Assembly: GCA_016933675.1 (NCBI GenBank)
Contig: JAFGAM010000001.1
Coordinates: 21,181-85,180 of the forward strand
Direction of reading: 5' to 3'
Length of the DNA stretch: 64,000 bases
From: Candidatus Anaeroferrophillacea bacterium
GTDB lineage: Bacteria > Desulfobacterota > Anaeroferrophillalia > Anaeroferrophillales > Anaeroferrophillaceae
Part shown: piece after piece, positions 1 to 56,245 of the stretch
Position numbering within the stretch: the stretch's first letter is position 1
Layout of the letters: the number at the start of each line of letters is the position of its first letter
The notes under the pieces: generated by a model
Told to the model about the DNA's origin: nothing
What the model saw: the letters and a program-made list of their open reading frames with translations, nothing else
The model's database searches: none
Position numbers and translations under genes: made by a program

Positions 1-54
1 GCTGCTGCCCACCAGCAGCCGGATCATGGAGCGGAAATCGCGCAGTTTTTTCAT
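1..54 (-). CDS. N-terminal fragment of an unidentified CDS that runs off the window (MKKLRDFRSMIRLLVGSS...)
   Basis: An ATG at 54..52 lies 7 nt after a copy of the tsaD stop context. The frame stays open to the window edge, and only 18 codons are visible. Confidence 0.3.
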   Translation of the reverse strand, partial: MKKLRDFRSMIRLLVGSS

Positions 55-66
55 CTGCGGTTACAG
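31..66. repeat. Copy 1 of an exact 36-nt direct repeat (GCGGAAATCGCGCAGTTTTTTCATCTGCGGTTACAG)
   Basis: It is identical to 104..139 with a 73-nt period. Confidence 0.95.
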
Positions 67-103
67 CTGCCGACGATGGTCATGTCCACGGCATTCACCC
101 TGG

Positions 104-139
104 GCGGAAATCGCGCAGTTTTTTCATCTGCGGTTACAG
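104..139. repeat. Copy 2 of the exact 36-nt direct repeat, spanning the tsaD stop codon
   Basis: It is identical to 31..66. It contains the tsaD stop (134..136) and a decoy ATG at 127..125 that opens a 10-codon ORF (95..127). Confidence 0.95.
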
Positions 140-1120
140 GGCCAGACGGGAACTGGCGTTGAGCCGCCGGTCATCCACCAGGCCACGGCAAAAGCGGCGA
201 TAACCCACCAGACCGATCATGGCGCCGTTGTCGGTACACAACACCGGCGATGCGCAGTGGGCCGCAAACCCCCGCGCCGCCGCCCGCTCACGCAGCAAGT
301 CGCGGATGGTACGGTTGCAGGCAACGCCCCCGGCCATGACCACGGTCGACACCCCATGCCTTTCGGCGGCACGCACGGCCCGCGCGGTGAGTACATCGGC
401 CACCGCCGCCTGGAACGAGGCGGCGATATCGGCAGGCCTGTGGCCGCCGCGTTCGATCACCGTGCGCACGGCGGTTTTCAGGCCGCTGAAGCTGAAATCG
501 AAAGAATCGGGCGCAAGCCAGGCGCGGGGAAAACGGACCGCCGCCGGATCGCCATCGCCTGCCAACCGCTCGATAAGCGGCCCGCCGGGATAGCCGAGTT
601 CCAGCATCTTGGCGACCTTATCGAAGGCCTCACCAGCGGCGTCGTCGATGGTCCGGCCCAGGAGCCGGTAGGTGTGCCAGTCCGCGGCCAAAAACAGGCT
701 CGTATGGCCGCCGGAAGCTACCAGGCCGACATAGGGAAAGGAAATGTGCGGATTTTCCAACAGGGGGGAGAGCAGGTGCCCTTCGACGTGGTGCACCCCC
801 ACCAGCGGCAGCCGACGGGCGAAGGCCACCGCCTTGGCGAAGGAAAGCCCCACCAGCAGCGAACCCACCAGGCCCGGACCGCGGGTGACGCAGACCAGTT
901 CGATGTCGTCGAGGCGGGCGCCGGCTTCCGCCAGCGCCCGGTTGACCACCAGCGGCATATTTTCCAGATGATGACGGGATGCCAGCTCGGGTACCACGCC
1001 ACCGAAGGGGGCATGCACCTCCACCTGGCTCGAAATAACGTTGGCCCGCACCATGTCGGGGGCCTCGAGCACGGCGGCACAGGTATCGTCACAGGACGTT
1101 TCGACGGCAAGGATCATCAT
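134..1120 (-). CDS. tsaD: tRNA N6-adenosine threonylcarbamoyltransferase TsaD (Kae1/Gcp family)
   Basis: This is a 328-aa ORF with N-terminus MMILAVETSCDDT. It carries the metal-site motif VGVHHVEGHLL and ASGGHTSL. Confidence 0.93.
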   Translation of the reverse strand: MMILAVETSCDDTCAAVLEAPDMVRANVISSQVEVHAPFGGVVPELASRHHLENMPLVVNRALAEAGARLDDIELVCVTRGPGLVGSLLVGLSFAKAVAFARRLPLVGVHHVEGHLLSPLLENPHISFPYVGLVASGGHTSLFLAADWHTYRLLGRTIDDAAGEAFDKVAKMLELGYPGGPLIERLAGDGDPAAVRFPRAWLAPDSFDFSFSGLKTAVRTVIERGGHRPADIAASFQAAVADVLTARAVRAAERHGVSTVVMAGGVACNRTIRDLLRERAAARGFAAHCASPVLCTDNGAMIGLVGYRRFCRGLVDDRRLNASSRLAL

Positions 1121-2155: not shown

Positions 2156-2247
2156 ATCATCCACCTCCTCCAGTGCTTGCGGTTACGGCTTCACCGCGAC
2201 CCCGTCTTTCCTGTTGCCCGCCGGTGCGTACCACAGGCAGACAGGCG

Positions 2248-2279
2248 CCGCGAATCCGGAGCCGTTACCGTGCCATCAC
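2248..2279 (+). repeat. Intergenic repeat family member, fused form (CCGCGAATCCGGAGCCGTTACCGTGCCATCAC)
   Basis: The 5' box and 3' box are adjacent. It nearly matches 56136..56169 and 44955..44985. Confidence 0.8.
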
Positions 2280-2316
2280 ATCTTGACATATCGGCAGTCT
2301 CTACGCCTTGCCACTG

Positions 2317-2343
2317 TTAGCACTCACTTTTTACGAGTGCTAA
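2317..2343. promoter_or_regulatory. CIRCE operator (HrcA binding site) TTAGCACTC-N9-GAGTGCTAA
   Basis: It is a perfect match to the CIRCE consensus inverted repeat with a 9-nt spacer. It overlaps the predicted -10 of the minus-strand rpoH promoter. Confidence 0.9.
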
Positions 2344-2370
2344 CATAGCATACTGCCGACTCCGGAGCAA
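2342..2370 (-). promoter_or_regulatory. Predicted sigma-70 type promoter of rpoH (-35 TTGCTC, 17-nt spacer, -10 TATGTT)
   Basis: The hexamers were read on the minus strand at 2370..2365 and 2347..2342. The promoter sits about 180 nt upstream of the rpoH start. Confidence 0.55.
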
Positions 2371-2540
2371 TAGAAAAAAAGCCAAAAAATCCGCCTAAAG
2401 CGAGTTACCAGCACCAAGACCGGCCCGCTGGGGATGGTTTCGTAAACACCATACCGGGCGCGAATGATGGAACGAAAACGAAGTCATCGGCACGGGCAGC
2501 CGGCGCAAGATGAAACGAAACGCATGCCCAGCCATCGGTA

Positions 2541-2569: not shown

Positions 2570-2798
2570 ACCCGCGCATATTGGTGAGGCTATCGAAAAA
2601 CGCCGCTCAAGGGACGACCCGCTAACCACTCCGGACTCGCGGCGCACAAAACCTGCGGGATACGGCGGCGGTTTACGTTGCGCGACTCGGGGTGCAGCGT
2701 CCGTCGGCAGGCGGCACGCACCGGCAGACTGCAAAGACAACGGAGTTGCCGGCAAACCGCCGGAACCGGGGAAATCGTACAGAGGTAATGAGACCGGC

Positions 2799-4031: not shown

Positions 4032-4616
4032 ATGTCCCTTGCATTGTTCCTGATTGCCGCCTATCTGCTGGGCGCGATTCCCTGCGGGCTGCTCATCGCC
4101 CACCGGTTCACCGTCGACGATCCCCGCACCCACGGCAGCGGCAACATCGGCGCCACCAACATCGCCCGCACTGCCGGCAAAAAAGCCGGTCTGCTGACCC
4201 TGTTCGCCGACGCCCTCAAGGGAGCGCTGCCGGTGCTCGTCGCCCACGCCGTTTTTCCCGGCCGCCCGGCGGTCGCCGCCGGCGCCGGCCTGCTGGCCGT
4301 CACCGGACACATCTTTCCGCTCTACCTGGGATTCAAAGGCGGCAAAGGGGTGGCCACGGCGCTGGGCGTTTTCCTTACCCTGGCGCCGCCGGCGGTGGCG
4401 GTGGAGGTGCTGATCTTCGGGCTGACGCTGGGAGTGACGCGAATCGTTGCGGCGGGATCGATGGTGGCGGCCCTGACGCTGCCGGTGTGTACCTGCCTGC
4501 TGGGCTACCCGGCGGCCGTCACCCTGGCGGCGGCGGTCACCGGCGGTCTGGTGGTCTACCGCCACCGGGAGAACCTCAAACGGCTGCTCGACGGCACGGA
4601 AAACCGCTTCTTCTGA
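4032..4616 (+). CDS. plsY: Glycerol-3-phosphate acyltransferase PlsY
   Basis: It has the GSGNIGATN motif and is a multi-TM protein of 194 aa. Confidence 0.92.
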   Translation: MSLALFLIAAYLLGAIPCGLLIAHRFTVDDPRTHGSGNIGATNIARTAGKKAGLLTLFADALKGALPVLVAHAVFPGRPAVAAGAGLLAVTGHIFPLYLGFKGGKGVATALGVFLTLAPPAVAVEVLIFGLTLGVTRIVAAGSMVAALTLPVCTCLLGYPAAVTLAAAVTGGLVVYRHRENLKRLLDGTENRFF

Positions 4617-4640
4617 CACCGGCACCAGGATCATGCGGGG

Positions 4641-7755: not shown

Positions 7756-7830
7756 CACCGCAAATCCGGAGCGGCGGCGGGAGCGGACAATCTTTCCGCC
7801 CCGCCGGGGGTCGATTAGGGTTTCATCGCC
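7756..7830 (+). repeat. Intergenic repeat family member, composite form (5' box, variable hairpin, degenerate 3' box)
   Basis: It reads CACCGCAAATCCGGAGC, then a 12-bp hairpin (7775..7806), then GATTAGGGTTTCATCGCC. It lies about 200 nt upstream of rlpA. Confidence 0.65.
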
Positions 7831-8698: not shown

Positions 8699-8705
8699 TG
8701 GATCG

Positions 8706-9892
8706 TTACGAAGCCATCCGGCGGGTACCGGTGTACAGCTCGTAGCGGCACAGCCGACACTCCAGCGGGCCGTTGAACAGGGTCAGGCGGCGGCTCGCCT
8801 TCAATCCCACCTGTTTCAGCAATTCGAGGTCGCCACCGAGTACCCAGGAGACATACCCGGCACCCTCGCGCTTGAAAAAATCCCCCAGCCGGGTATAGGT
8901 TTCCCCCAACTCATCCCGCCGTCCCAGTCGCTCGCCGTAGGGCGGATTGACCAGCATCACCCCGCCTCCCGGCGGCACCGGGGTAGCGTCCAGCTCGGCC
9001 ACATGGAACTCGATCAGTTCCTCCACCCCCGCCCGGCGGGCATTCTCCCGCGCCCGCGCCACCGCTTTCGGATCGATATCGGCGGCCACGATCCGCCCCC
9101 CAGGGTTCTGACGCCCCGCGGCCGCCGCCTCCTGCCGCAGGCGCGGCCAGCCGCCGCGGGGAAACCCCTTCAGCGTTTGGAAGGCAAAGTGGGCGCGTTT
9201 CATGCCCGGCGCCCGATTGGCGGCGATCAGCGCCGCTTCGATGGCCAAAGTACCGCTGCCGCACATCGGGTTGACCAGCGGCACCCTCCCGTCCCAACCG
9301 CTCAGGCGGACGATGGCCGCCGCCAGGGTCTCCTGCAACGGCGCTTTCCCCCCCGCCAGGCGATAGCCACGGCGGGCGAGAGATTCGCCCGAGGTATCGA
9401 GGTAAACGGCACAGCGGCGCCGGTCCCAGTGGACGAACACCACCGCCCCGCGGCGTTCCGGCCCGGAATCGGGCCGTTGATCGAAGCGCCGGCGGAAGCG
9501 GTCGACGATGGCGTCCTTGGTCTTCTGGTTGAGGAAACGGGTGTCGCGAATGCCGGGGACATCGGCACGGGAGAAGACACTGAGGTAGCCGTCAACAGGA
9601 ATCCATTCCTCCCAGCCCAGCTCCGTCACCCGCCGGTACAGCTCATCCGGTGACGCGGCCGGGAAACTGTCCAACAGCAGCAGCACCCGGTTGGCGAGGC
9701 GCGCATGGAGATTGAGAAACATGACGTCCCGCAGGGTGCCTTCCAGTTCGACCCCCAGCGGCTGAACCGCGGTGACGATAAAACCGCAGGCGCGGATCTC
9801 CTCCGCCAGCACCTCGGCCACTCCCCGGGCACAGGAGAGATGCAGTCGGTACCGCCGTCCCCCGGCGCGGTCAGGCATCCCGGACGCACCCA

Positions 9893-10831: not shown

Positions 10832-10982
10832 TCATGCGGCCCGCATGTGCCGCACGCGGAGAAACGCTGCAGGCTGAGTCACCGGGGCGTACTTCCATGT
10901 CCGGCTTCCCCGGAGCGCCATGCGTATCCGGGGGGGGGCACAGCGCGCCGGGCCCCCGCATCGCATCTCCCGCCGACGTCGT

Positions 10983-11008
10983 CCGGCAGTTGTTACGGTT
11001 CCATCATC
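10983..11008 (+). repeat. Intergenic repeat family member, 3' box (CCGGCAGTTGTTACGGTTCCATCATC)
   Basis: It lies between the hslU stop and the argB start, antisense to both. Confidence 0.8.
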
Positions 11009-14207: not shown

Positions 14208-14578
14208 GACATCACCCCGGATTCCATCGTCATGTGACTGCGAACACCATCGACCGCCATGGGCCCCGTTCCACTCCCGGCGGCGGATTTCACCACCACC
14301 ATCCCGTGATCTTTCCGACCGCCGGAACAACCTCCCGACCGCGGCATAGACAATGGCAAAGACAGCACCGCCGCCATTATGTAGTCAATCGCCCCGGTTT
14401 AATCAACCGTATTCGTGCCGGCAGCGGCACCCTGACATGTTATTCGCCGCGTTCAACCCGGGTCAGAACGACGGCCGAGACAACCCCGCCGTTCCCCGGA
14501 CCGGCAAGACCGGAGCAGCCGGGACGGTTACAACGCCATCCCTTTTCGGCAGGTTGCGGTTTCGTCATGCCTGACAGC

Positions 14579-17593: not shown

Positions 17594-18602
17594 GCGGCAG
17601 TTCCTCGAGGCGGCGGATGAGCTCCAGCATGTCCACCGGCGGGGGCGCGGTGAACACCAGCCGTTCACCGCGCCGCGGATGGATGAACCCCAGGCGCCCG
17701 GCATGCAGCGCCTGACGGGGAAAATCCCGCAGGAAGGCATGTTCAGGCGCCCCCGCCCACTGCCGCTCGATCCCCTTCTTGCCGTACACCTGGTCACCCA
17801 CCAGAGGATGGCCGGCCTCGGTGAAATGGACCCTGATCTGATGCGTACGTCCGGTCTCCAGGGTCACGGCAACCACGGTCACCGGCGGCAGCCGGGATTG
17901 CACCCGGTAGTGGGTTACCGCCCGCCGGCCACCGCGGTCCACCGACGCCATCTTCTTCCGGTCCCGCGGACTGCGACCCAACATTGAGGTAAACGTCCCG
18001 GAATCCGGCCGCACCCGGCCGTAGACCACGGCAAGATACTCACGGTCGATGGCATGGGAGGCGAACTGCACCGTCAGTTCCCGATGGCACAATTCATCCT
18101 TGGCCGCCACCAGCACCCCCGAGGTATTCTGGTCCAGACGATGGACGATGCCGGGCCGCAATTCACCACCGATGCCCCGCAGATCCCGGCAATGATGCAG
18201 CAGGGCGTTCACCAGGGTACCGTCGGGATTCCCGGCCGCGGGATGGACCACCATCCCGGCGGGCTTGTCGATGACGATCAGACCTGAATCCTCGTAGAGG
18301 ATTGTCAGCGGCAGGTTTTCGGGTTGCGGATTTTCCCTCGACACCGGTGGCGGCACGGTTACCGTCACCCGCTCGCCGCCGGCAAGCCGGCTACCGGCCT
18401 TGCGCGGCTCGCCGTCGACCAGCACGAGACCGTCCCGAACGAGCTGCTGCAAACGGTGGCGCGACAACTCCGGCAGGGACCCATGCAGAAAAACATCAAG
18501 GCGCTGGCGCCGGTCATCGGGACAAAAAAAACAGTGGCGGGTTGCACCTGCGGGGGGAGGTATCATTGTCTTTTGAAGTAGTCGCAGATCCCGCCGGGCC
18601 AT
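17586..18602 (-). CDS. rluD: 23S rRNA pseudouridine synthase RluD
   Basis: It has an S4 domain, HRLDQNTSG, and TGRTHQIRVH. Confidence 0.9.
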   Translation of the reverse strand: MARRDLRLLQKTMIPPPAGATRHCFFCPDDRRQRLDVFLHGSLPELSRHRLQQLVRDGLVLVDGEPRKAGSRLAGGERVTVTVPPPVSRENPQPENLPLTILYEDSGLIVIDKPAGMVVHPAAGNPDGTLVNALLHHCRDLRGIGGELRPGIVHRLDQNTSGVLVAAKDELCHRELTVQFASHAIDREYLAVVYGRVRPDSGTFTSMLGRSPRDRKKMASVDRGGRRAVTHYRVQSRLPPVTVVAVTLETGRTHQIRVHFTEAGHPLVGDQVYGKKGIERQWAGAPEHAFLRDFPRQALHAGRLGFIHPRRGERLVFTAPPPVDMLELIRRLEELPRA

Positions 18603-18618
18603 TCCGTTTCGGCGCAGT

Positions 18619-18643
18619 CCGGCGGTGGTTACGATTCCGTCAG
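18619..18643 (+). repeat. Intergenic repeat family member, 3' box variant (CCGGCGGTGGTTACGATTCCGTCAG)
   Basis: It lies between the rluD start and the TPR gene stop. Confidence 0.65.
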
Positions 18644-19389
18644 TCCTTGTTTTTCATCCGGTTCCGGATGTAGTGCTCCAGTTTCCGGGCCTCAGGAAAT
18701 TCCCCTTTTATTTCCATCGCCTGCTGCAGGGCCGCCAGAGCCTCGACGTGCAGTTCCTTGCCCACCAGCGCCCGGGCCAGGTTGAAATAGAGTACCGGAT
18801 CCCGTTGACTGATCTCCAGTGCCTTGCGGTAGTTGGCGATGGCCTCATCGTACATCTTCTGCTGGCGCAGATCAATGCCGAACTCATTGAAGACATGCTT
18901 GTTCTCTTCCTCGAACAGGGCCTCGATGGAAGTCAGCCGGCGAAATATTTCTTTCGCCTCCTCGACCTCACCGAGGGCGAGCTTGAGTTTACCCATACCG
19001 TAATTCGCCCGGACATTCTCCTCGTCCAGCCTCAGAGCCTGACCGAACTCGAATTCAGCACTGTTAAACTCCTTGCGCTTCATGTGCAGGTTGCCCCGCG
19101 AGGCCATCCGGTCGGCCCGTTGCCGGGCTTCCTGCTGCTCTTGCAACCGGCGCTGCGGCGGCGGGACGTACTCCGGGCACGGCTGGCACCGCTGGTGAAA
19201 CTCCTCGACGGGGATGATCTCCTTGATATTCGTCGGTTCACCGTTCATGTTCAGCAGCGAAATCTCGACCTGCCGGTCGGCCAGTTCGCGGGCAAGAAAG
19301 ATATTTTCACCCCGGCTTTTCCGGCTCGTCGCCCCGGTTCCCAGCGTAATGCTGACATGTTCGACGTAATACCCGGTTATCTTCCCCAT
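18640..19389 (-). CDS. TPR-repeat protein with an unassigned N-terminal domain
   Basis: The C-terminal half has TPR-like repeats (AIANYRKALEI, LARALVGKELHVEALAALQQAMEI). No signal peptide is visible. Confidence 0.6.
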   Translation of the reverse strand: MGKITGYYVEHVSITLGTGATSRKSRGENIFLARELADRQVEISLLNMNGEPTNIKEIIPVEEFHQRCQPCPEYVPPPQRRLQEQQEARQRADRMASRGNLHMKRKEFNSAEFEFGQALRLDEENVRANYGMGKLKLALGEVEEAKEIFRRLTSIEALFEEENKHVFNEFGIDLRQQKMYDEAIANYRKALEISQRDPVLYFNLARALVGKELHVEALAALQQAMEIKGEFPEARKLEHYIRNRMKNKD

Positions 19390-19731
19390 ACCTGCCCCCG
19401 CATTGATGACTGATGCCCCTGACGAGCGGGCCCATCCGGTACCTCTGTTATCGGAAATTCAACGTGTTTTTTAACCCCATCTCCACCTTTTCGTGCCGCG
19501 GCGCCGATTTTTCCGCTAACCGCAGTATTCCAGGGTATGCCCGAACGCACCGCAACAACTTCGTCAGCGGCGAGACAGTCAGGATGTGCGCATTCTCCAT
19601 CCCGACGGACCACGGCGCCACCACCCGCTTTTCACCGCCGCTCGGCAAGCGTTAACTTATCATTATTCACTAATATTTTATACACCTTGACGCCCTTACC
19701 CGGCGGTGATAGGAGTCACATTCCGGACGCT

Positions 19732-19760
19732 GGAGCGGTTACGAAGCCGGCATTTTTTGC
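19732..19760 (+). repeat. Intergenic repeat family member (GGAGCGGTTACGAAGCCGGCATTTTTTGC)
   Basis: It nearly matches 28050..28077. It ends 15 nt upstream of the ATG at 19775. Confidence 0.65.
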
Positions 19761-21885: not shown

Positions 21886-22116
21886 GAAAAATCACTTGTC
21901 AGCCGGACGCAGTTATGAAATAGCTTCAGAACGATCCGGTTGCACTTTTGTCGATGGTTTCGTAACACCCCCGTCTTCTTCGTGGCACTGCCCGTGCGTG
22001 CCGGATGCAAGCGGTGCGGCAAACCGAGTCGTTCGACGTATGGCAACACCGCATACATCAGTAGGAAAACGCCGCGGATCAGGAGCTGTTGCCATGCCAT
22101 CCCGCCTCGGCGTATC

Positions 22117-22141
22117 CCGGCAGTGGTTACGGTTTCATCAC
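22117..22141 (+). repeat. Intergenic repeat family member, 3' box (CCGGCAGTGGTTACGGTTTCATCAC)
   Basis: It ends 23 nt upstream of the DUF342 start codon. GGTTTCATC can pair with GATGGAATC, which abuts the ATG. Confidence 0.8.
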
Positions 22142-22164
22142 TTTTTGCGGTACCCGATGGAATC

Positions 22165-27981: not shown

Positions 27982-28049
27982 CAACGCCTCACCCCATAAT
28001 GAAAAAACCCGGTCGTGTCCGGCATGCTTTTTGCGGATCAATCCTCAAT

Positions 28050-28077
28050 GGAGTTGTTACGAAGCCGGCAATCAATC
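28050..28077 (+). repeat. Intergenic repeat family member (GGAGTTGTTACGAAGCCGGCAATCAATC)
   Basis: It lies between the secA stop and the argJ start and nearly matches 19732..19760. Confidence 0.6.
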
Positions 28078-38168: not shown

Positions 38169-39431
38169 TTATTCATGCCGGCCGCCCCGAACACCGGCGG
38201 CGCCATCAACCGGCAGGTTCACGGTAAACACCGTTCCTTCCCCCGGCTCACTCCGCCACTCGATGTTGCCGCCGTGATCAGCAACGATATTTTTCACCGT
38301 CGCCAAACCCAGCCCGCCCCCTGCCTTCCGGTCATGCTCCCGCCGCGGGCTGGAGAAGAAGGGGGTAAAGATCATCTCGCCCAGACCGGCCTCGATGCCG
38401 CAGCCGTCATCCTCCACCTGAAGACACACCCACCCGGAGGCAGGGGAACCGGTGCGCACAACGATCTCGCCGGCATAGTCCGTTCCCGCCGCGGCATGGT
38501 CATGTTTCTTCTTCCGCACCGCATGAACGGCGTTGAGCATCAGGTTGAGCACCACCTGCTGCACCTGGGATTTCTTCAGCCGCGCCTCGGGGATGGCCGG
38601 ATCCGCATGTTTCCGAACCCGGACGGCTTCACGTTCGAGCTCGTAACGACCCAGATCCAGGGCGTCATCCACGATCCGGTTGAGGTCCACCACCTGATAC
38701 ATCTCCTGTTCCGGATGGGTGAAACCCATCAGATTGCCGGTCAGCAGGTTCAGCGACTCGATCTGCCCGACAAGGCGGTCGAGCAGATGCATCTCCTTTT
38801 CCACCGGCATGCTGCCGCTGCTCTTCTTGAGCTGCAGCAGTTGGGCGATGCCGTAGATGGAGGTGAGAAAGTTATTCAGTTCGTGGGCAATGCCGGCGGC
38901 CACCTGTCCGAGGCAGGCCATTTTCTCCGCCCGCAGGACATCCTCATCCAGCACCGCGACATCGGTAGCATCCTGCAGAAAGACCACCGTCTCGGAACAG
39001 GCGCCCACCCGATTGTCGACCGCGGGATGAAAGAAGATGTTCAGCCGGCGGGATTGATCGGCAAAGGACGTCACCCGCAACCGCCGCCGGGGCTGACCGT
39101 CAGCGAAACAACCCGCCACCCCGCAGTCGGGACAGGGTGCCGCAGCACCACGAAACAGGCGGTAGCAGGGTCGGTCGACAACCTCCGCCGGGCACAGACC
39201 GACAAGCGCCGCCGCCGCCCGGTTGATGGCGATGATGCGGTAATCGCGGTCGATCATGAAGATACCGTCGGAAATGGCGTCGATTAACCGCCGGTAGCGG
39301 CGGCGATAATGGCTTTTCGCTTCGATCATGGGCACCATACCACAACGTATCCGGCACACCGCGGTTACCGTATTATCCGCCGGTGCAGCTGATACGGGAT
39401 GAAAGGCTTTCGATTGCTTCATAGTCGACAC
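38169..39431 (-). CDS. PAS-domain sensor histidine kinase
   Basis: It has PAS (IDAISDGIFMIDRDYRII), the H-box AHELNNFLTSI, and the HATPase G-box GGLGLATVKNIV. The start is uncertain: GTG at 39431, ATG at 39422, or ATG at 39338. Confidence 0.85.
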   Translation of the reverse strand: MSTMKQSKAFHPVSAAPADNTVTAVCRIRCGMVPMIEAKSHYRRRYRRLIDAISDGIFMIDRDYRIIAINRAAAALVGLCPAEVVDRPCYRLFRGAAAPCPDCGVAGCFADGQPRRRLRVTSFADQSRRLNIFFHPAVDNRVGACSETVVFLQDATDVAVLDEDVLRAEKMACLGQVAAGIAHELNNFLTSIYGIAQLLQLKKSSGSMPVEKEMHLLDRLVGQIESLNLLTGNLMGFTHPEQEMYQVVDLNRIVDDALDLGRYELEREAVRVRKHADPAIPEARLKKSQVQQVVLNLMLNAVHAVRKKKHDHAAAGTDYAGEIVVRTGSPASGWVCLQVEDDGCGIEAGLGEMIFTPFFSSPRREHDRKAGGGLGLATVKNIVADHGGNIEWRSEPGEGTVFTVNLPVDGAAGVRGGRHE

Positions 39432-39753
39432 CCGACATACATTTCTTTATCACATTGTTTCACCGATGTCCGGCTCCATTGTTGGCAAACTCGTAACAAC
39501 TCGAAAAACGGGATGGCCACGTAACAAGCTTTAGCTGCACGGCGCGCACATCCTGAGGAATGAGGCGTACAGAGCCTACGCCGCAATGACGAAGGAGGCA
39601 GCGCAACGCAGCAGATGGAGACTTTTTACGACGCCATCATTATTGGCCGTGGCGTTTCAATAGCTCCCGGACGATCGGTCTCGTCGGCATGCGGCCCCGC
39701 CGGCGGCCGGCACCCCAACCACGATTCCACCGCGACGCAACGACGCCTGCAGC

Positions 39754-39783: not shown

Positions 39784-39955
39784 AAGTCGCGGTGCCCGGC
39801 CACGCGCCGATGATTTCCCGATCGCCCCGGCCTCGACGCTGCCTGCCCGGGCGCGCCGCCCGCGGACGGGCGCGCGGCAACCCGGTGGCACGGAAGGGCG
39901 GCCGGCCGGTCGCCCGTACTACGACCGGACACCGAATCCGCCGGCCATGAACACG

Positions 39956-40024
39956 CCGCGAATCCGGAGCCGGCCCGGCGCCAGCCGATTTTCACGGTCG
40001 GTTGGCAATGGTTACGGTTCCATC
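39956..40024 (+). repeat. Intergenic repeat family member, composite form (5' box, variable hairpin, 3' box)
   Basis: It reads CCGCGAATCCGGAGCC, then a 9-bp hairpin GCCAGCCGA/TCGGTTGGC, then TTGGCAATGGTTACGGTTCCATC. It ends 24 nt before the pcnB ATG. Confidence 0.8.
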
Positions 40025-40047
40025 TTCCCTGACGGCAGACATCATCC

Positions 40048-43298: not shown

Positions 43299-43393
43299 CC
43301 ACGGCAGACGGACAACTCCCCGCCATCCGACAGTAGCCGGGGACAGGCAGACGGCAGGGTGAAGCGGCGGATTATCCATCCCGTGGCTTACGG

Positions 43394-44644
43394 TTACGGC
43401 GCCATCCCACCGGCGCCGGCATCGGTGCCGGTGCCCTTTCGACCGCCGAACGCCGCCGGCAGGTCCGTCCGCTCCCGCAGGACGGCGAAGGCGGCCAGCA
43501 ACAGGTCGATCTCGGCAGCCGTGTGGGCGGCGCTGAGGCTGATGCGCAGCAGGCTGCCGCCGCCGGGCGCCGCCGGCGGCAGCACCAGGTTGACGTAGAC
43601 CCCTTCCCGCAACAGGGCATGCCACATCCCGAGGGTGGTTTCGGCGTCGGGCAGGAAGACACCGACCACCGGCCCCGGCTCCGGCCCAAGGGCAAAACCC
43701 ATGTCCCGCAGCCCGGCATAGGTACGTGCAGCGTTTTCCCACAGCCGCCGGCGGAGTTCCGGGCGCGCGATCAGCTGCTGCAAGGCGGCGCGGGTGGCGG
43801 CGATGGTACCCGGCGATGGCGAGGCGGTATAGATGTACGGCCGGCTGGCGTAGCGCACCCATTCCAGCTCGGGGCGGGGGCTGACGCAGTAGCCGCCGAT
43901 GTTACCGAGGCTCTTGCTGAAGGTACCGACGATGAAATCCACCTGGTCCAACACCCCGGCTTCCTCGGCCCGCCCCCGTCCCCCCTCCCCCAGCACCCCC
44001 AGGGCGTGGGCCTCGTCCACCATCAGCAGCGCCCCGGCGGCGCGGGTGGCGGCGGTGATTTCGACCAGCGGCGCCCGGTCGCCCAGCATACTGTAGATCC
44101 CCTCGACGATGACCAGGGTATCGGCCACCCGCGAGCCCAGCCGGCGAAGGCGTTTGGCCAGATCGGCGGCATCGTTGTGGCGAAAGCGGATGATATCGGC
44201 GCCGCTCAGCCGGCAGCCGTCGTAGATGCTGGCATGGCAATCGGCATCGATAAGGGTGACATCTCCCGGCGCGGCGAGGGCGGCGATCATTCCCAGGTTG
44301 GCCAAAAAACCGGTGGAGAAAACGATTGCCGACCGCATGCCGTAAAAATCGGCCAGCTCCTCCTCCAGACGGCGGTGGCCGGCATAGCTACCGTTGGCCA
44401 TGCGCGAACCGGTGGTGCCGGTACCCGCCTCCTCCAGCGCCCGGCAGCCGGCGGCAATGCACCCGGCATCGAAGGTCAGCCCGAGGTAGTTGTTGGTACC
44501 CGCCAGCAGCACCGGCCGGCCGTTCATAACCCCGCGGGTGGGGGATTCGAGGCGCTCGAAGGTGGTGGAGAAAGGATCGATCCCGGCAGCGGTGATGGCC
44601 GCACGGGCGCGGCCGACGGTTTCGAGCTTGGCGAAGAGTCCCAT
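43394..44644 (-). CDS. spt: Serine palmitoyltransferase-like alpha-oxoamine synthase (PLP-dependent)
   Basis: GTFSKSLGNIGGY (the PLP lysine context typical of Spt) and LLAGTNNYLGLTFD are present. The N-terminal region resembles Sphingomonas SPT as I recall it. An ATG lies at 44644, and the ORF track uses a TTG at 44653. Confidence 0.8.
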   Translation of the reverse strand: MGLFAKLETVGRARAAITAAGIDPFSTTFERLESPTRGVMNGRPVLLAGTNNYLGLTFDAGCIAAGCRALEEAGTGTTGSRMANGSYAGHRRLEEELADFYGMRSAIVFSTGFLANLGMIAALAAPGDVTLIDADCHASIYDGCRLSGADIIRFRHNDAADLAKRLRRLGSRVADTLVIVEGIYSMLGDRAPLVEITAATRAAGALLMVDEAHALGVLGEGGRGRAEEAGVLDQVDFIVGTFSKSLGNIGGYCVSPRPELEWVRYASRPYIYTASPSPGTIAATRAALQQLIARPELRRRLWENAARTYAGLRDMGFALGPEPGPVVGVFLPDAETTLGMWHALLREGVYVNLVLPPAAPGGGSLLRISLSAAHTAAEIDLLLAAFAVLRERTDLPAAFGGRKGTGTDAGAGGMAP

Positions 44645-44898: not shown

Positions 44899-44954
44899 AA
44901 TGAACGTATCCTCGATGGCCTCCGTAACACCCCCATCGCCTTCGCGGCGCAGCC

Positions 44955-45028
44955 GGCGAAATCCGGAACCGTTAGGGTGCCATCCATTTTTGCCGCATGT
45001 GCCGGCAGTGGTTACGGTTCCATCAACC
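44955..45028 (+). repeat. Two adjacent intergenic repeat family members (fused form plus 3' box form)
   Basis: They read GGCGAAATCCGGAACCGTTAGGGTGCCATCC and CCGGCAGTGGTTACGGTTCCATCAACC. They lie in the gap upstream of acp, antisense to it. Confidence 0.85.
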
Positions 45029-45078
45029 GTGGAAGGTGATGCCCGCACCCGGTTGCCCCCGGCCGGCAACCGCCGGAT

Positions 45079-49904: not shown

Positions 49905-50077
49905 CCGGGCATGCACCGGAACCATCCGAGAAAGAAGCACGGGCGACCGGCCGGTCGCCCCAACACCCACCGCCAATAAGCGCCGGGCCGACCGGTCCCG
50001 GTGCCGACAGCGCGATTGCGGCGTTGCGCCCGCGGCGCTGAAATCGCCAAACACGCCCCTGATGGGACTCAAACCCG

Positions 50078-52451: not shown

Positions 52452-52542
52452 CACCGCAAATCCGGTGGAGCGCCTATGATGGACCACCCCTCCGGGATCA
52501 TCCCTTTTCAGGGTATTTTGGCAATTGTTACGGTTTCATTGC
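52452..52542 (+). repeat. Intergenic repeat family member, composite form (5' box, variable hairpin, 3' box)
   Basis: It reads CACCGCAAATCCGGTG, then a hairpin GATGAT/ATCATC, then TTGGCAATTGTTACGGTTTCATTGC. It lies in the 517-nt region upstream of lptF. Confidence 0.75.
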
Positions 52543-53928: not shown

Positions 53929-54998
53929 ACCTCATCGCCCGCCACATCGCCCGCCGGTTTTTCTTCTGGTGGCTGCTTTGCGGCCTGCTGCTGGTGGGTC
54001 TGTTCTCGCTCTTCGATCTGGCGGCGCAGATCGACGATCTGGAGGCCGGCTACCGCCTGGCGGACGCCCTGCTGTACGTCGCCCTGAAGGTTCCCGGACG
54101 CTTCATCGAAACCGCCCCGCCGGCCATCCTGCTGGCGGGAGTGGCCACTCTGGGCATCATGGCCGAGCACCAGGAGCTGCTGGCATTACAGGCCGCCGGG
54201 ATCGGCACCGCCCGGATCGCGTGGCAGATCGTCAAACCGGCACTGGCGGTGCTGCTGCTGCTCATGCTCGCCGGGCAGTTTATCGCCCCGCCCATGGAAC
54301 AACGGGCGTGGGTCATCCGTGAACAGGGGCGGTCGCAAACCGGGACGTTTTTACCCAACACCGGGTTCTGGGTCCGCCGGGGACGGCAATTCATCAATCT
54401 TCGCCCCGACCGCACCGGCCATGCCGCCGGCCGCGCCATCGAAATCTACCGCTTCGCCGGTGACGGCCGTCTGGAATCCCTGATCCAGGCACCCGAGGTC
54501 TCGCTGGACAACGACAACGAATGGATCCTGCACCGGGCCCGGACCAGGCACTTCGACGGCGGCAACGGCGGAATTATCCGGGCAAGCGACCCCGAAATTC
54601 GGATTCAACCGCCGCTGACCGGCACCGAAACCCGGATATTCAACCTGCCGGCCCGGACCCTGTCGTTCAGTGAGCTGCACGCCCTCATCGGGCGGTTGCG
54701 GGAGCGCCGACAGTATGCCGGCACGTTCCGGACGGTATTCTGGCAGAAGCTCACCCAAGCACCGCTCGCCCTGGCGATGCTGGCGCTGGCATTTCCCTTC
54801 ACCCTCGGGCGGCCGCGGCAGATGGGACTGGGCTGGCGGATCATGGTGGGGGCGGTAACCGGGGTGCTGGGCTATTTCATCCATCAGGTTTTCGTCAACC
54901 TCGGTCTGCTCTGGTCATGGCCGGCGCCGCTCACGGCCATCGTCCCCATCGGGGTTTTCCTTCTCGCCGCACCGCTGCTGCGGCCGCGTCGCGGCTGA
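53925..54998 (+). CDS. lptG: LPS export ABC transporter permease LptG (YjgP/YjgQ family)
   Basis: It starts MNLIARHIARRF and has the same topology as lptF. There is an ATGA overlap with lptF. Confidence 0.8.
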   Translation: MNLIARHIARRFFFWWLLCGLLLVGLFSLFDLAAQIDDLEAGYRLADALLYVALKVPGRFIETAPPAILLAGVATLGIMAEHQELLALQAAGIGTARIAWQIVKPALAVLLLLMLAGQFIAPPMEQRAWVIREQGRSQTGTFLPNTGFWVRRGRQFINLRPDRTGHAAGRAIEIYRFAGDGRLESLIQAPEVSLDNDNEWILHRARTRHFDGGNGGIIRASDPEIRIQPPLTGTETRIFNLPARTLSFSELHALIGRLRERRQYAGTFRTVFWQKLTQAPLALAMLALAFPFTLGRPRQMGLGWRIMVGAVTGVLGYFIHQVFVNLGLLWSWPAPLTAIVPIGVFLLAAPLLRPRRG

Positions 54999-55976
54999 CC
55001 CATGGCGAGGCAGCAGACGGATGGCGGGGGGGATCGCGATAAATCCGCCGGCATGGCAAACGAAACGATACACTGTCTCCTCCAGCTCCCAGGCGGTCGG
55101 CAGCGGGCGCAGCCGATAGCGGGCGATTACCGCCCGGTACGCCCCCGCCCGGCCGCCGGCAGTAGCGGCGGCCAGGCCGCGGACCGGCACCGGACCGGCG
55201 GCCGTATCCAGTTCCCGCTGCATAAGACGATGGGCATGACCGTGCAATACCAGTTCGACGCCGCGGCGGCGCAAAACCGCAAGCAGCTGCACCCCGTCCG
55301 CCAGGCGCTTGCGAGGGCTGACGACATCGGGAAACGGCGGATGATGGAGCAGCACGACACGAAATTTCCCCGCCTCGGCGCCGGCGGCCAGGGCGGTATC
55401 GAGGTCCGTCAGCTGGCGACGGCCCAACCGGCCGAGCGCCAGCAGGGGATTGCCGCCGGCCACGGCCGAAGACAGGCCGATGAACATCACCGGGCCCCGG
55501 ATGCGGACGACAGGAAAGGGATCGACCCCACCGGCAGCCGCGACCGGCGGCGACCGGCGGGCGTCGGAACGGCAGTACGGCAGCCATGCCGGCAGCCCCC
55601 GGACCAGGGATCGGCGGCCGGTGGCATCGTGGTTGCCGGGAATCACGGTAATATCGCCGGGATCACCCAGTCGTGCGAGCCAGGCGGCCGCCTCAAGGTA
55701 TTCCGCCCGCGTCCCGAGACTGGTGAGATCGCCGGTAACGACCGCGTGATCCGGCCGCCGGCGATGCAGCTCCCGCTCCACGGCGGTGAGAACCGCGGTA
55801 TCGTACACGTGGCGACGGCTTAGGTACCAGGCCGGCAGCCCGAGAACCGCTTTGAGGCTCAACTCGTACCATCGCGGTCGGGGCCGGGTGAAATGCGGAT
55901 CGGAAAGGTGGACGAAGGTAAACCCGGGGTTGTCCTCCGCCGCCTGATCCGTTACATGGTGCATTGGCTGATCCAT
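54915..55976 (-). CDS. Calcineurin-like metallophosphoesterase
   Basis: It has the motifs HLSDPH, TGDLT, GNHD, LLHHPP and HGHAH. Its 3' end overlaps lptG convergently by 84 nt. Confidence 0.8.
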   Translation of the reverse strand: MDQPMHHVTDQAAEDNPGFTFVHLSDPHFTRPRPRWYELSLKAVLGLPAWYLSRRHVYDTAVLTAVERELHRRRPDHAVVTGDLTSLGTRAEYLEAAAWLARLGDPGDITVIPGNHDATGRRSLVRGLPAWLPYCRSDARRSPPVAAAGGVDPFPVVRIRGPVMFIGLSSAVAGGNPLLALGRLGRRQLTDLDTALAAGAEAGKFRVVLLHHPPFPDVVSPRKRLADGVQLLAVLRRRGVELVLHGHAHRLMQRELDTAAGPVPVRGLAAATAGGRAGAYRAVIARYRLRPLPTAWELEETVYRFVCHAGGFIAIPPAIRLLPRHGSAATRPQQRCGEKENPDGDDGRERRRP

Positions 55977-56090
55977 AACCCGGGGGAACCCGGCAGTCTC
56001 CGGTATGGTTTTTGCCGAACCATCGGCAGCAGGCCGGAATCGGTGCCGACAGCTCGATTTCGGCATTGTCATCGCCTCGCTGAAACGGCC

Positions 56091-56245
56091 AATTACCGTA
56101 ATTCCACGGGTCCGCCCCGTCCCCCGGCTGCGGCGCGCCGAGAATCCGGAGCGGTTACCGTACCATCACGTTTTACCGCACTTCGGCGTGGTTACGGTTC
56201 CATCAACCTTGCCCGCTTGCGAGCGCGGTTACGGTTCCATAAACC
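56091..56245 (+). repeat. Array of four intergenic repeat family 3' boxes (56091, 56153, 56189, 56227), the second with a 5' box at 56136
   Basis: The boxes read AATTACCGTAATTCCAC, GGTTACCGTACCATCAC, TGGTTACGGTTCCATCAACC and GGTTACGGTTCCATAAACC. The last three are 37 nt apart. The array ends 70 nt before the operon ATG. Confidence 0.85.

What the first reader, a model, noticed from the sequence alone, without database searches (positions are those of the whole stretch)
31..56245. Dispersed two-box intergenic repeat family, about 25-30 copies in 64 kb, with strand bias
Nearly every intergenic gap carries one or more copies of a motif with two boxes. The 5' box is CGCGAATCCGG, with variants CGCAAATCCGG, GCGAAATCCGG and CCGAGAATCCGG. 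The 3' box is YGGCAGTGGTTACGGTTCCATCA, often followed by TTTTTGC.

- Strong + strand copies: 2248-2279, 8704-8721, 10983-11008, 14525-14542, 18619-18643, 19732-19760, 22117-22141, 28050-28077, 39355-39378, 40002-40024, 43392-43408, 44955-44985, 45002-45028, 52518-52542, 56091-56245 (four copies).
- Minus-strand copies: 14610-14631, 21950-21968, 39481-39529 (two copies).
- Weaker minus-strand copies: 2433-2447, 2466-2479, 2509-2521.

The 10-mer GGTTACGGTT occurs six times, all on the + strand, where about 0.06 per strand is expected. One of these lies inside pgeF at 17327-17336. Copies occur sense and antisense to neighbouring genes, in 5' leaders, between convergent genes, and overlapping stop codons. 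I read the + strand text more easily, so the bias could be partly an observer effect. Candidate explanations are a REP-like element, a global regulator site, a small structured RNA module, or a replication-polar DNA signal.
Basis: seen in the sequence. Interest (0 to 1): 0.65.

Follow-up and report, generated by a model that had tools for sequence, protein, structure and literature searches.

The report
Strand-biased mosaic intergenic repeat family
The window from an uncultured Desulfobacterota genome carries about two dozen copies of a short non-coding repeat (core GTTAC-N4-CCATC) packed into its intergenic DNA and mostly on one strand; it looks like a new, lineage-specific relative of REP/BIME/MITE-type repeats, not a gene, a known RNA or a conserved regulatory site.

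Summary
The repeat family is real. The core GTTAC-N4-CCATC occurs 12 times exactly and 20 times with at most 1 mismatch, against 2.3 expected. A profile finds 23 copies at E<1, and 21 of them lie in the 13.5% of the window that is intergenic (p about 1e-16).

The family is modular. Nine loci carry a composite unit of about 75 nt: box1 GCGCCGCGAATCCGG, an A copy, a T-rich linker, and one or two B copies (CCGGCAGTGGTTACGGTTCCATCA) 36-40 nt downstream. The remaining copies are solo.

The strand bias holds: 19 copies on + against 4 on -. The nine strong composite loci are all on +, and six of them sit in divergent gaps. One degenerate box1+A remnant lies on -. Solo copies are unbiased.

- No Rfam match and no conserved RNA fold.
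- Only a weak consensus inverted repeat, with no GTAG-type tag.
- No transposase gene in the window.
- No copies in the three nearest relatives available; one relative has a 10-nt gap where the window has a 180-nt gap holding a unit.

Best reading (about 0.5): a lineage-specific, duplicatively spread, REP/BIME/MITE-like mosaic element, probably handled strand-specifically. The mechanism cannot be settled without the rest of the genome.

The parts
2245..2309 (+). Composite unit U1. It contains box1 (2249-2259), an A copy GTTACCGTGCCATC (2264-2277) and a degenerate B copy. It lies between a CIRCE operator and the start of a minus-strand rpoH-like gene, so it is antisense in that gene's leader.
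   Evidence: D2; E 2.5e-4; E 3.8e-14
2430..2451 (-). Solo copy TGGTGTTTACGAAACCATCCCC of the GAAR-spacer subfamily. It shares a mosaic segment of about 55 nt with 56000-56064.
   Evidence: E 0.005; I1
2609..2644 (-). Degenerate box1 + A-like remnant on the minus strand (GCGCCGCGAGTCCGGAGTGGTTAGCGGGTCGTCCC). It is the only composite-type piece on the - strand.
   Evidence: E 0.93; E 1.4
7756..7830 (+). Weak, degenerate composite-like stretch: CGCAAATCCGGAGCGG ... ATTAGGGTTTCATCGCC.
   Evidence: E 0.28
8700..8720 (+). Solo copy GGATCGTTACGAAGCCATCCG. Its reverse complement encodes the last three codons (M-A-S) and the TAA stop of the minus-strand RlmL-like gene.
   Evidence: (E 0.0018)
10953..11007 (+). 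Composite unit U2 (degenerate A plus B copy CCGGCAGTTGTTACGGTTCCATCA). It lies between two minus-strand genes, 25 nt beyond the hslU stop codon.
   Evidence: D1, D3; E 7e-5
14514..14570 (+). Composite unit U3: an A copy GTTACAACGCCATC, then a degenerate B copy (GTTGCGGTTTCGTC) 26 nt downstream. It sits in the divergent gap between xerC and a tonB-like gene. A weak minus-strand copy lies at 14608-14625.
   Evidence: E 0.0019; E 0.0016
18583..18645 (+). Composite unit U4, with B copy CCGGCGGTGGTTACGATTCCGTCAG. The TCA of CCGTCA is the TGA stop codon of the minus-strand TPR gene.
   Evidence: (E 4e-4)
19730..19755 (+). Solo copy CTGGAGCGGTTACGAAGCCGGCATTT, a variant with CCGGC in place of CCATC, followed by a T-run.
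   Evidence: (E 0.0019)
21951..21973 (-). Solo copy CGGGGGTGTTACGAAACCATCGA. It is inverted relative to U5 and homologous to the segment at 44914-44948.
   Evidence: (E 0.0027)
22069..22143 (+). Composite unit U5: box1-like sequence, A variant GTTGCCATGCCATC at 22088 and B copy at 22126. It ends 21 nt before the start codon of the FapA-like gene.
   Evidence: E 1.5e-19
28049..28073 (+). Solo copy TGGAGTTGTTACGAAGCCGGCAATC, 4 nt beyond the secA stop codon and antisense to both flanking genes.
   Evidence: (E 0.0028)
39358..39380 (+). Weak solo copy ACCGCGGTTACCGTATTATCCGC.
   Evidence: E 0.14
39491..39528 (-). A solo copy CTTGTTACGTGGCCATCCCGT (39508-39528), with a weak second copy 27 nt downstream on the - strand (39491-39502).
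   Evidence: (E 0.029 and 4)
39618..39640 (+). Solo copy GAGACTTTTTACGACGCCATCAT.
   Evidence: E 0.066
39953..40027 (+). Composite unit U6: box1 CGCGAATCCGG, a degenerate A copy and B copy TTGGCAATGGTTACGGTTCCATC. It ends 20 nt before the pcnB-like start codon. It is absent from the orthologous upstream region in relative L141.
   Evidence: E 5e-16
43391..43408 (+). Solo copy CGGTTACGGCGCCATCCC. Its reverse complement encodes the last three codons (M-A-P) and the TAA stop of the minus-strand aminotransferase gene. It may be a chance match or a relic.
   Evidence: (E 0.027)
44914..44934 (-). Weak inverted copy with a 5-nt spacer (GGGGGTGTTACGGAGGCCATC). Together with U7 it forms a 111-nt stretch with inverted termini.
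   Evidence: (E 2.3)
44952..45029 (+). Composite unit U7: box1 variant GCGAAATCCGG, A copy GTTAGGGTGCCATC and the consensus B copy. It sits in a 180-nt gap inside a minus-strand operon. The orthologous gap in L141 is 10 nt.
   Evidence: (E 1e-5)
52455..52542 (+). Composite unit U8: box1 variant CGCAAATCCGG, a longer degenerate A region and B copy TTGGCAATTGTTACGGTTTCATTGC.
   Evidence: D3; E 0.03; E 3e-14
56007..56025 (+). Weak solo copy GGTTTTTGCCGAACCATCG inside a mosaic segment shared with 2393-2457 (inverted) and 49987-50050.
   Evidence: I1, D14; E 2.7
56135..56245 (+). Composite unit U9: box1, an A copy (56154) and two B copies (56191, 56228), with cores exactly 37 nt apart. It sits in the divergent gap between a minus-strand metallophosphoesterase gene and a plus-strand CDP-alcohol phosphatidyltransferase gene.
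   Evidence: E 3e-19

Best explanation
This is a lineage-specific family of short, non-coding, mosaic intergenic repeats that multiplied within this genome, an NCBI MAG named Candidatus Anaeroferrophillacea bacterium. It belongs to the same broad class as REP/BIME, BOX and MITE elements.

**Anatomy.**
- The basic module is about 25 nt: GG-N4/5-GTTAC-N4-CCATC.
- The full unit is about 75 nt: box1 (GCGCCGCGAATCCGG), an A module, a T-rich linker, and one or two B modules 36-40 nt downstream.
- The 5' arm (GGAGCCGTTACCGTGCC) and the 3' arm (GGCAGTGGTTACGGTTCC) are imperfectly complementary. The unit can therefore fold into a weak hairpin, which is better on the strand as written.

**Shown.**
- The repeat is real and strongly enriched.
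- It is confined to intergenic DNA.
- It is modular.
- Copies share long flanking similarity.
- It is missing from the related contigs that could be fetched.
- It is biased to one strand.

**Inferred.**
- Copies arose by duplication (transposition or recombination), not by independent evolution of binding sites.
- The invariant pentamers GTTAC and CCATC are the recognition site of the trans-acting protein that copies or binds the element.
- The same-strand orientation of the composite units reflects strand-specific handling, for example of single-stranded DNA at the replication fork, as in IS200/IS605 and RAYT systems.
For: **Enrichment and location**
- The core has 20 matches at up to 1 mismatch against 2.3 expected.
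- 23 profile hits at E<1, 21 of them in the 13.5% intergenic DNA.

**Common descent rather than convergence**
- 35 nt at 91% identity between 2245 and 56135.
- 24 nt at 96% identity among 10983, 22117 and 45002.
- 36 nt at 81% identity between 18598 and 22096.

**Mosaic modules**
- Segments are shared pairwise in different combinations among 55975-56100, 49935-50060 and the reverse complement of 2355-2480.
- Tandem B modules sit at exactly 37 nt spacing.

**Presence/absence against relatives**
- The relative L141 is 80% identical in PcnB and 69% in the epimerase.
- L141 has a 10-nt gap between the ACP and epimerase genes where the window has 180 nt holding a unit.
- L141 has no unit upstream of pcnB.
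- There are no copies in L141, L202 (22 kb, 62% GC) or L142/L143.
- There are no genuine copies among the hits of exact-word scans of public metagenomes, genomes and viral contigs.

**Gene ends**
- Three minus-strand genes end inside a copy. This is typical of elements that land at gene ends.

**Hairpin**
- The consensus has an inverted repeat: 73% of cells are paired, against 27-50% when the partner is slid.
- There are 25 G.T against 8 A.C pairs, so the fold is better on the + strand.

**Strand bias**
- 19 copies on + against 4 on - (p 0.0026).
- Nine strong composite units on + against one degenerate remnant on -.
- All six composite units in divergent gaps are on +, where gene direction cannot explain the orientation.
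Against: - No transposase, RAYT or other mobilising gene lies in the 64 kb.
- No target-site duplications were found.
- The hairpin is weak. DNA folding z-scores run from -2.1 to +0.6, and the helix shows no covariation.
- The two pentamers are much more conserved than the 4-nt spacer or the flanks. Purely neutral decay of mobile copies would not give this pattern. It points to ongoing selection on a protein-recognition site.
- About half of the occupied gaps are divergent promoter regions, unlike REPs (PMC3733652).
- The only relatives available are distant, at about 80% protein identity. Their lack of copies would also fit turnover of regulatory sites.
- The better hairpin is on the C-rich strand, which is the leading-strand template under the usual GC-skew rule. 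That is the opposite of what an IS608-like mechanism predicts.
Confidence: 0.5

Rival explanations
1. The copies are binding sites of an abundant, lineage-specific DNA-binding protein, either a nucleoid-associated protein or a global regulator. The protein would contact GTTAC and CCATC in two successive major grooves, 9 bp centre to centre. Sites would be maintained by selection in promoter-bearing gaps. This partly overlaps with the best explanation, because REP-type elements are also protein-bound.
For: - GTTAC and CCATC are nearly invariant (18-21 of 21 copies), while the 4-nt spacer varies among subfamilies: GGTT, CGTR, GAAR and others.
- About half of the occupied gaps are divergent.
- In four cases a copy ends 15-25 nt from a start codon.
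- The core has partial dyad symmetry, GG-N4-GTWAC-N4-CC.
Against: - About 23 sites in 64 kb, next to unrelated housekeeping genes (secA, hslU, pcnB, rpoH, argJ, ACP and others), is too many for an ordinary regulon.
- Long similarity outside the core and mosaic modules argue for copying.
- Sites are absent at orthologous positions in relatives.
- A transcription-linked role does not predict the same-strand orientation.
- A sigma-54 reading of the reverse complement fails. B copies have AC where GC is needed, and matches to the sigma-54 consensus are at chance level.
Confidence: 0.2
2. The family is a host chromosome-polarity signal tied to the direction of replication. It would act like KOPS or Chi in principle, but be confined to intergenic DNA. 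It could, for example, be read on single-stranded DNA at the fork.
For: - The nine strong composite loci are all on the + strand.
- The window has uniformly negative GC skew, so it lies within one replichore.
- Orientation is independent of the direction of flanking genes: three (-,-) gaps and six divergent gaps all carry + oriented units.
- The hairpin quality is strand-asymmetric.
Against: - Only one replichore is visible, so no sign switch can be shown.
- Known polar motifs are 8-mers that lie mostly inside genes.
- Solo copies are not strand-biased.
- Absence from relatives argues against a core chromosome-maintenance role.
Confidence: 0.12
3. The family is a transcribed RNA element, such as a cis-regulatory leader or 3'-UTR module, a protein-binding RNA motif, or a small RNA.
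For: - Units lie in predicted 5' leaders, including those of pcnB and rpoH, and between genes of an operon.
- The excess of G.T over A.C pairs is what a transcribed hairpin would show.
- The reverse complement contains GGA motifs and an ATG-N6-TAA mini-frame.
Against: - No Rfam hit, even at E<=1.
- RNAalifold finds essentially no consensus structure on either strand, -0.6 and -0.9 kcal/mol.
- No compensatory changes.
- RNA folding z-scores are mostly unremarkable.
- Units are sense to some neighbouring genes and antisense to others.
- There is no consistent distance to start or stop codons.
Confidence: 0.08

Closest known systems
REP / BIME elements and REPIN-RAYT systems (E. coli, Pseudomonas, Stenotrophomonas)
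   Same: - A short, high-copy, intergenic repeat specific to one lineage.
- It occurs as singlets and as doublets whose two halves are imperfectly complementary.
- It has a mosaic organisation with linker motifs, like BIMEs.
- It lies between genes of operons and just past stop codons.
   Different: - No GT[AG]G or CGTC tag at the foot of a stem.
- The hairpin is weak (16 imperfect pairs, z about -2 to +0.6), not a fully paired stem of 7-20 bp.
- The two halves are also direct repeats, with GTTAC-N4-CCATC in both.
- About half of the occupied gaps are divergent, whereas REPs favour convergent or unidirectional gaps (PMC3733652).
- There is a strong same-strand bias.
- No RAYT gene was seen, although only 64 kb was available.
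BOX elements of Streptococcus pneumoniae (boxA-boxB(n)-boxC)
   Same: It has a modular build with a 5' module, an internal module that can be repeated in tandem (here the B module, once or twice, with a 37-nt period), and a dispersed intergenic location.
   Different: The sequence and host phylum are unrelated. BOX elements are longer and fold into stable structures. No strand polarity is known to me for BOX (from memory, not tested here).
MITEs such as Correia/NEMIS elements
   Same: - Presence/absence between related genomes.
- Location in promoter regions as well as at gene 3' ends.
- Copies can supply stop codons to neighbouring genes.
- Two loci (21951-22139 and 44914-45024) have inverted termini, GATGG..GTAAC / GTTAC..CCATC.
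   Different: Most copies have no terminal inverted repeats. No target-site duplication was found. No parent insertion sequence is known.
IS200/IS605-family elements and their miniature derivatives (single-strand, replication-coupled HUH transposition)
   Same: It has a strand-specific orientation, an imperfect hairpin that is better on one strand, and a conserved TTAC, which is the IS608 target and cleavage tetranucleotide (from memory; mechanism summarised in PMC6006769).
   Different: - There are no separate left-end and right-end hairpins.
- The units are far shorter.
- No tnpA gene lies in the window.
- The better hairpin lies on the C-rich strand, the leading-strand template under the usual skew rule. 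That is opposite to the IS608 expectation.
DNA uptake sequences (Neisseria DUS, Pasteurellaceae USS)
   Same: It has a short, highly conserved core with weaker flanks, is very abundant, and is lineage-specific.
   Different: Uptake sequences are common inside genes and occur on both strands. Here 21 of 23 copies are intergenic, and the composite units are on one strand.

Membership tests
REP / REPIN (RAYT-associated) | Short imperfect palindrome forming a stable stem-loop (basal stem of 7-20 fully paired nt; PMC6006769) | tested here: not met
   The consensus arms are 73% complementary over 16 pairs, with a bulge and a central T.T mismatch. DNA folding z-scores are -2.1 to +0.6. Solo copies have at most 3-6 bp stems.
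REP / REPIN (RAYT-associated) | GT[AG]G (or CGTC) tetranucleotide at the foot of the hairpin | tested here: not met
   No conserved GTAG or CGTC. GTGG precedes GTTAC in 5 of 8 B copies, but it is not at the foot of a paired stem.
REP / REPIN (RAYT-associated) | Cognate RAYT (Y1 HUH) gene flanked by copies | not testable with these tools
   No such gene was found among the window's genes. The rest of the MAG could not be fetched.
REP / REPIN (RAYT-associated) | Located mainly between convergent or unidirectional genes, downstream of coding regions (PMC3733652) | tested here: not met
   Of the 9 composite loci, 6 are in divergent gaps and 3 in (-,-) gaps. None is in a convergent gap.
REP / REPIN (RAYT-associated) | High copy number, intergenic, lineage-specific | tested here: met
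   23 copies in 64 kb, 21 of them intergenic. Absent from relatives.
MITE | Terminal inverted repeats on each copy | tested here: inconclusive
   Only two loci have inverted termini (21951-22139 and 44914-45024). The others do not.
MITE | Target-site duplication | tested here: not met
   Inspection of the flanks of the five full units found no direct repeats.
MITE | Presence/absence polymorphism at orthologous sites | tested here: met
   A 180-nt gap with a unit in the window against a 10-nt gap in L141. The pcnB upstream region also differs. The relative is distant, so deletion or turnover cannot be excluded.
IS200/IS605-derived miniature element | Orientation bias tied to the lagging-strand template | tested here: inconclusive
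   The bias is present (nine strong composite loci on +, one remnant on -; 19 against 4 copies overall). Only one replichore is visible, and the better-folding strand is the C-rich one.
IS200/IS605-derived miniature element | Distinct subterminal hairpins at the left and right ends with guide and cleavage tetranucleotides | tested here: not met
   There is a single weak hairpin per unit. TTAC is present, but no junction could be defined.
Rfam RNA families / riboswitches | Match to a curated covariance model | tested here: not met
   No match at gathering score. None at the units at E<=1.
Structured RNA (new) | Conserved secondary structure with compensatory changes | tested here: not met
   RNAalifold gives -0.57 and -0.91 kcal/mol on the two strands. 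One pair has a double change, against 1.4 in shuffles.
Sigma-54 promoter (reverse complement TGGCAC-N5-..GC) | GG at -24 and GC at -12 with fixed spacing | tested here: not met
   8 of 21 copies have GC at the required place and 12 have AC, including most B copies. Consensus matches in the window number 23 against 26 expected.
DNA uptake sequence | Abundant on both strands and inside genes | tested here: not met
   2 of 23 copies touch coding sequence, both at the last codons. The strand bias is 19 against 4.
Polar chromosome motifs (KOPS / Chi type) | Orientation switches at origin and terminus; mostly intragenic 8-mers | not testable with these tools
   The window has uniform GC skew. The intergenic restriction differs from known examples.

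The most novel reading that the evidence does not exclude
The composite unit is a strand-polar element read or copied as single-stranded DNA at the replication fork. It would be either a new class of miniature HUH- or other single-strand-mobilised repeat with a bipartite GTTAC-N4-CCATC recognition site instead of a GTAG-tagged hairpin, or a host-adopted intergenic polarity signal. On this reading, its orientation would flip between replichores across the roughly 3-Mb genome of this uncultured Desulfobacterota class.
Probability: 0.2. Interest if true: 0.7.

Novelty: new variant of a known kind. Interest (0 to 1): 0.4.

Why it matters
**If the density holds genome-wide**
- The family would have on the order of a thousand copies in a genome of about 3 Mb.
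- This is an extrapolation from 23 copies in 64 kb and the class-average genome size given in bioRxiv 10.1101/2021.03.22.436540.
- That would make it the main repeat of an uncultured Desulfobacterota lineage (Ca. Anaeroferrophillalia).

**Practical consequences**
- It is a handle for strain typing.
- It can cause mis-assembly and mis-annotation. Three genes end inside copies, and start codons are mis-called at the CCAT of the motif.

**Scientific interest**
- The family does not fit the standard REP definition. It has a bipartite non-palindromic core, direct as well as inverted symmetry, a preference for promoter-bearing gaps, and same-strand orientation.
- A demonstrated link to replication direction, or to a new mobilising enzyme, would extend what is known about how such elements spread.
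- If it turns out to be an ordinary decaying MITE family, it is of local interest only.

Tried and rejected
**Public-collection scans**
- The metagenome scan with GTGGTTACGGTTYCATCA gave 57 single hits. These are chance matches or coding sequence, for example the cold-shock protein codons K/R-G-Y-G-F-I.
- The viral scan gave chance hits only.
- Exact look-ups of window proteins found no indexed contig of the MAG. No further DNA of this organism could be read.

**Literature**
- A search for the motif sequence found only PCR primers.
- The only paper on the lineage does not mention repeats.

**Readings considered and rejected**
- *Sigma-54 promoter on the reverse strand.* Rejected.
- *Sigma-70, sigma-32 or ECF-type promoter* (box1 as -35 and CCATCA as -10). 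B copies lack any -35, and the conserved GTTAC would fall in the spacer. I rejected it as a general explanation.
- *Intrinsic terminator.* The T-run sits inside the loop of the unit, not after a stem. Only the GAAG-spacer copy at 19736 looks terminator-like.
- *IHF site, DnaA box, parS, Ter and CRP-type palindromes.* None matched on inspection.
- *Mini-ORF on the reverse strand.* The reverse complement reads ATG-GNN-NNG-TAA, a 3-codon frame, and TGATGG is a stop/start overlap.
  - Substitutions are not biased away from ATG and TAA (6 of 14 fall inside them).
  - No Shine-Dalgarno sequence precedes the ATG.
  - I treat it as a coincidence that explains why copies end neighbouring ORFs.
- *Gene-linked orientation* (reverse complement 'upstream of' the left-hand minus-strand gene). 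This fits all nine composite loci. However, 77% of the large gaps in this window have a minus-strand gene on their left (0.77^9 = 0.095). Divergent gaps are uninformative for this rule, yet they still show 6 units on + and none on -. The rule is not needed.
- *Target-site duplications.* None found.
- *Compensatory changes in the A/B helix.* One suggestive case at 18628, but no statistical support.

Full report
**Source and context.** The window is 60-68% GC, with negative GC skew on the + strand in 15 of 16 bins. Its proteins match 100% to an NCBI metagenome-assembled genome named Candidatus Anaeroferrophillacea bacterium. The matching proteins are MBN2231244.1 and MBN2231217.1, on an 87,094-nt contig. 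This lineage is an uncultured Desulfobacterota class described in bioRxiv 10.1101/2021.03.22.436540. That paper does not mention repeats.

The genes are ordinary housekeeping genes:
- tsaD, an rpoH-like sigma factor, queD and folE2
- an ABC-F protein, rlmL, argB, hslVU, xerC and a tonB-like gene
- pgeF, rluD-like, murJ, mltG, argJ, secA and recN
- pcnB-like, proC, an ACP/aminotransferase/epimerase/acyl-AMP-ligase cluster, lptFG and nadA

There is no transposase. One correction to a naive ORF map matters below. The region 54915-56072 is a minus-strand metallophosphoesterase gene, and the long + ORF 55002-55823 is its shadow.

- GGTTACGGTT occurs 7 times against 0.03 expected.
- The 22-mer 3' box has 6 matches against 0 expected.
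- The minimal core GTTAC-N4-CCATC has 12 exact matches and 20 at up to 1 mismatch, against 2.3 expected.
- A profile built from the core and searched symmetrically on both strands finds 23 copies at E<1.
- 21 of these lie in the 13.5% of the window that is intergenic (p about 1e-16).
- An all-against-all BLAST of the 35 intergenic segments, made without reference to the finding, recovers this family as by far the main repeat.

- There are seven copies of the 10-mer, one of them on the minus strand at 5055.
- The intragenic copy is at 17318, not 17327.
- Box1 alone is only about twice as frequent as chance.
- About 13 of 35 gaps are occupied, not nearly all.
- Several 'weak' copies are at chance level.

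**Anatomy.** Alignment of the copies shows a module of about 25 nt: G-N-A-G-Y-G-GTTAC-G-R-T-K-CCATC-M.

GTTAC and CCATC are nearly invariant (18-21 of 21 copies). The four bases between them vary, and they define three subfamilies:
- **B type**, spacer GGTT: CCGGCAGTGGTTACGGTTCCATCA, 8 copies.
- **A type**, spacer CGTR or similar. It is preceded by box1, GCGCCGCGAATCCGG, and followed by a T-run.
- **Solo type**, spacer GAAR or similar.

Nine loci carry a composite unit made of box1, A, a T-rich linker and B. The second core lies 36-40 nt after the first, or 26 nt at one locus. At 56135-56245 there are three cores exactly 37 nt apart.

Other segments next to the units are shared pairwise in different combinations. 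The whole arrangement is a mosaic, like BIMEs or BOX elements.

The 5' arm GGAGCCGTTACCGTGCC and the 3' arm GGCAGTGGTTACGGTTCC are imperfectly complementary.
- 73% of cells pair, against 27-50% when the partner is slid.
- 12 to 16 of 16 pairs form in the four complete units.
- There are 25 G.T against 8 A.C pairs, so the fold is better on the strand as written.

The hairpin is weak, however.
- The helix shows no compensatory changes.
- RNAalifold finds no consensus structure on either strand.
- DNA and RNA folding energies are mostly within the range of shuffled sequences.

**Orientation.**
- By copies, the count is 19 on + and 4 on - (p 0.0026).
- By independent loci, it is 13-15 against 3-5 (p 0.008-0.1).
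- The bias comes from the composite units. A unit-length profile finds nine strong loci on + and only a degenerate box1+A remnant on - at 2609-2644.
- The solo GAAR subfamily is unbiased, about 4 against 3-5.

Gene direction does not explain this. Three units lie between two minus-strand genes and are antisense to both. Six lie in divergent gaps, where either orientation would 'face' a gene, yet all six are on +.

Units sit in predicted leaders in both senses. They are sense in the pcnB leader. They are antisense in the leader of the rpoH-like gene, downstream of its CIRCE operator.

The GC skew has the same sign across nearly all of the window. It appears to lie in one replichore, so a link to replication cannot be tested here.

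**Distribution in other genomes.** The nearest relatives that could be fetched have no copies:
- L141 (7.4 kb, 65% GC, PcnB 80% identical)
- L202 (22 kb, 62% GC)
- L142/L143 (21 kb, 50% GC)

In L141 the ACP and epimerase genes are 10 nt apart. In the window they are 180 nt apart, with a unit in between. The pcnB upstream region of L141 has a sigma-70-like promoter and no unit.

Exact-word scans of public genomes, metagenomes and viral contigs returned only chance or coding hits.

**What it is.** The combination of features fits a family that multiplied by copying within this lineage. It belongs to the broad class of REP/BIME, BOX and MITE elements. The features are:
- strict intergenic location
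- modular, mosaic build
- similarity that extends well beyond the core (up to 35 nt at 91% identity)
- tandem multiplication
- gene ends that fall inside copies
- absence at orthologous sites in relatives

It is not a canonical REP (criteria from PMC6006769 and PMC3733652). It has no GT[AG]G or CGTC tag and no stable stem. About half of the occupied gaps are divergent.

It is not a known RNA family. It is not a sigma-54 promoter.

The very strong conservation of the two pentamers relative to the spacer implies that a protein reads GTTAC-N4-CCATC. I infer that this protein is the enzyme that copies the element, or a host protein that binds it.

The same-strand orientation and the strand-asymmetric hairpin suggest handling as single-stranded DNA, as in IS200/IS605 and RAYT systems. 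That step is inference. One observation goes against it: the better-folding strand is the C-rich one, the leading-strand template under the usual skew rule.

**Rivals.**
- Binding sites of an abundant DNA-binding protein, 0.2. This overlaps with the main reading.
- A host replication-polarity signal, 0.12.
- A transcribed RNA module, 0.08.

**Verdict.** The finding is real, and its main features hold: a dispersed family of about 23 copies plus weaker ones, with a strand bias. It is a new, lineage-specific variant of a known kind of element. Interest is moderate. The strand polarity and the non-REP architecture are the unusual parts. The mechanism cannot be settled without the rest of the genome.

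Noticed in passing
window 2316-2344 (with promoter-like TTGCTC-N17-TATGTT at about 2372-2345, minus strand): There is a perfect CIRCE operator, TTAGCACTC-N9-GAGTGCTAA. It lies upstream of the minus-strand gene 1295-2164, which has sigma-70 regions 1.2, 2 and 4 and is of RpoH-like size (289 aa). This suggests HrcA control of a heat-shock sigma factor. A repeat unit sits between CIRCE and the start codon.
   Followed up: partly
window 31-75 and 104-148: A 45-nt direct repeat is 91% identical and 73 nt apart. On the minus strand each copy contains ATGAAAAAACTGCGCGATTTCCGC, which looks like a duplicated gene start just downstream of tsaD. It has GCGGTTACAG but no CCATC half, so it is not a member of the family.
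   Followed up: no
window 42337-42392 and 62212-62267; L141 about 4300-4350: A 56-nt segment (77% identical) consists of a small GC hairpin with a T-run followed by CTTGCC-N17-TGCTAGC. This looks like a terminator plus an extended -10 promoter. It lies upstream of proC and nadA, and the proC copy is conserved in the relative L141. It shows what ordinary promoters look like in this lineage.
   Followed up: partly
window 39896-39917 and 49939-49960: A GC-rich perfect palindrome, GGGCGACCGGCCGGTCGCCC, occurs in two intergenic gaps at 95% identity and matches in both orientations. It is a second, small hairpin-type repeat.
   Followed up: no
window 49987-50050, 56029-92 and 2393-2457 (inverted): Repeat segments of 64-65 nt at 75% identity lie next to family copies and are shared pairwise in different combinations. 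The intergenic DNA is a mosaic of several short modules.
   Followed up: partly
window 54915-56072 (-) versus 55002-55823 (+): The long + strand ORF has no Pfam match. The overlapping minus-strand ORF is a calcineurin-like phosphoesterase. Shadow ORFs like this are common in this 65% GC sequence and change how the gap at 56072-56316 is classified.
   Followed up: yes
window 8706-8720, 43394-43408, 18640-18642, 18600-18602: The reverse complement of the motif reads (TGA)TG-GNN-NNG-TAA. Two minus-strand genes end with M-A-S/P-stop encoded by a copy. A third uses the TGA of CCGTCA. The first ATG of the rluD-like ORF at 18602 is the CCAT of a degenerate copy, which probably causes a start-codon mis-call.
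   Followed up: partly
L141 about 2440-2500: The relative's gap downstream of the menaquinone-biosynthesis gene holds a tandem 11-nt repeat, (C)CATGCCGCAGT, in about four copies. It is unrelated to the window's family.
   Followed up: no
window 22126-22167: The B copy upstream of the FapA-like gene can pair its UUUCAUC with the GAUGGAA that lies just before the start codon. This would be a possible leader hairpin occluding the ribosome-binding region. It is a single case.
   Followed up: no
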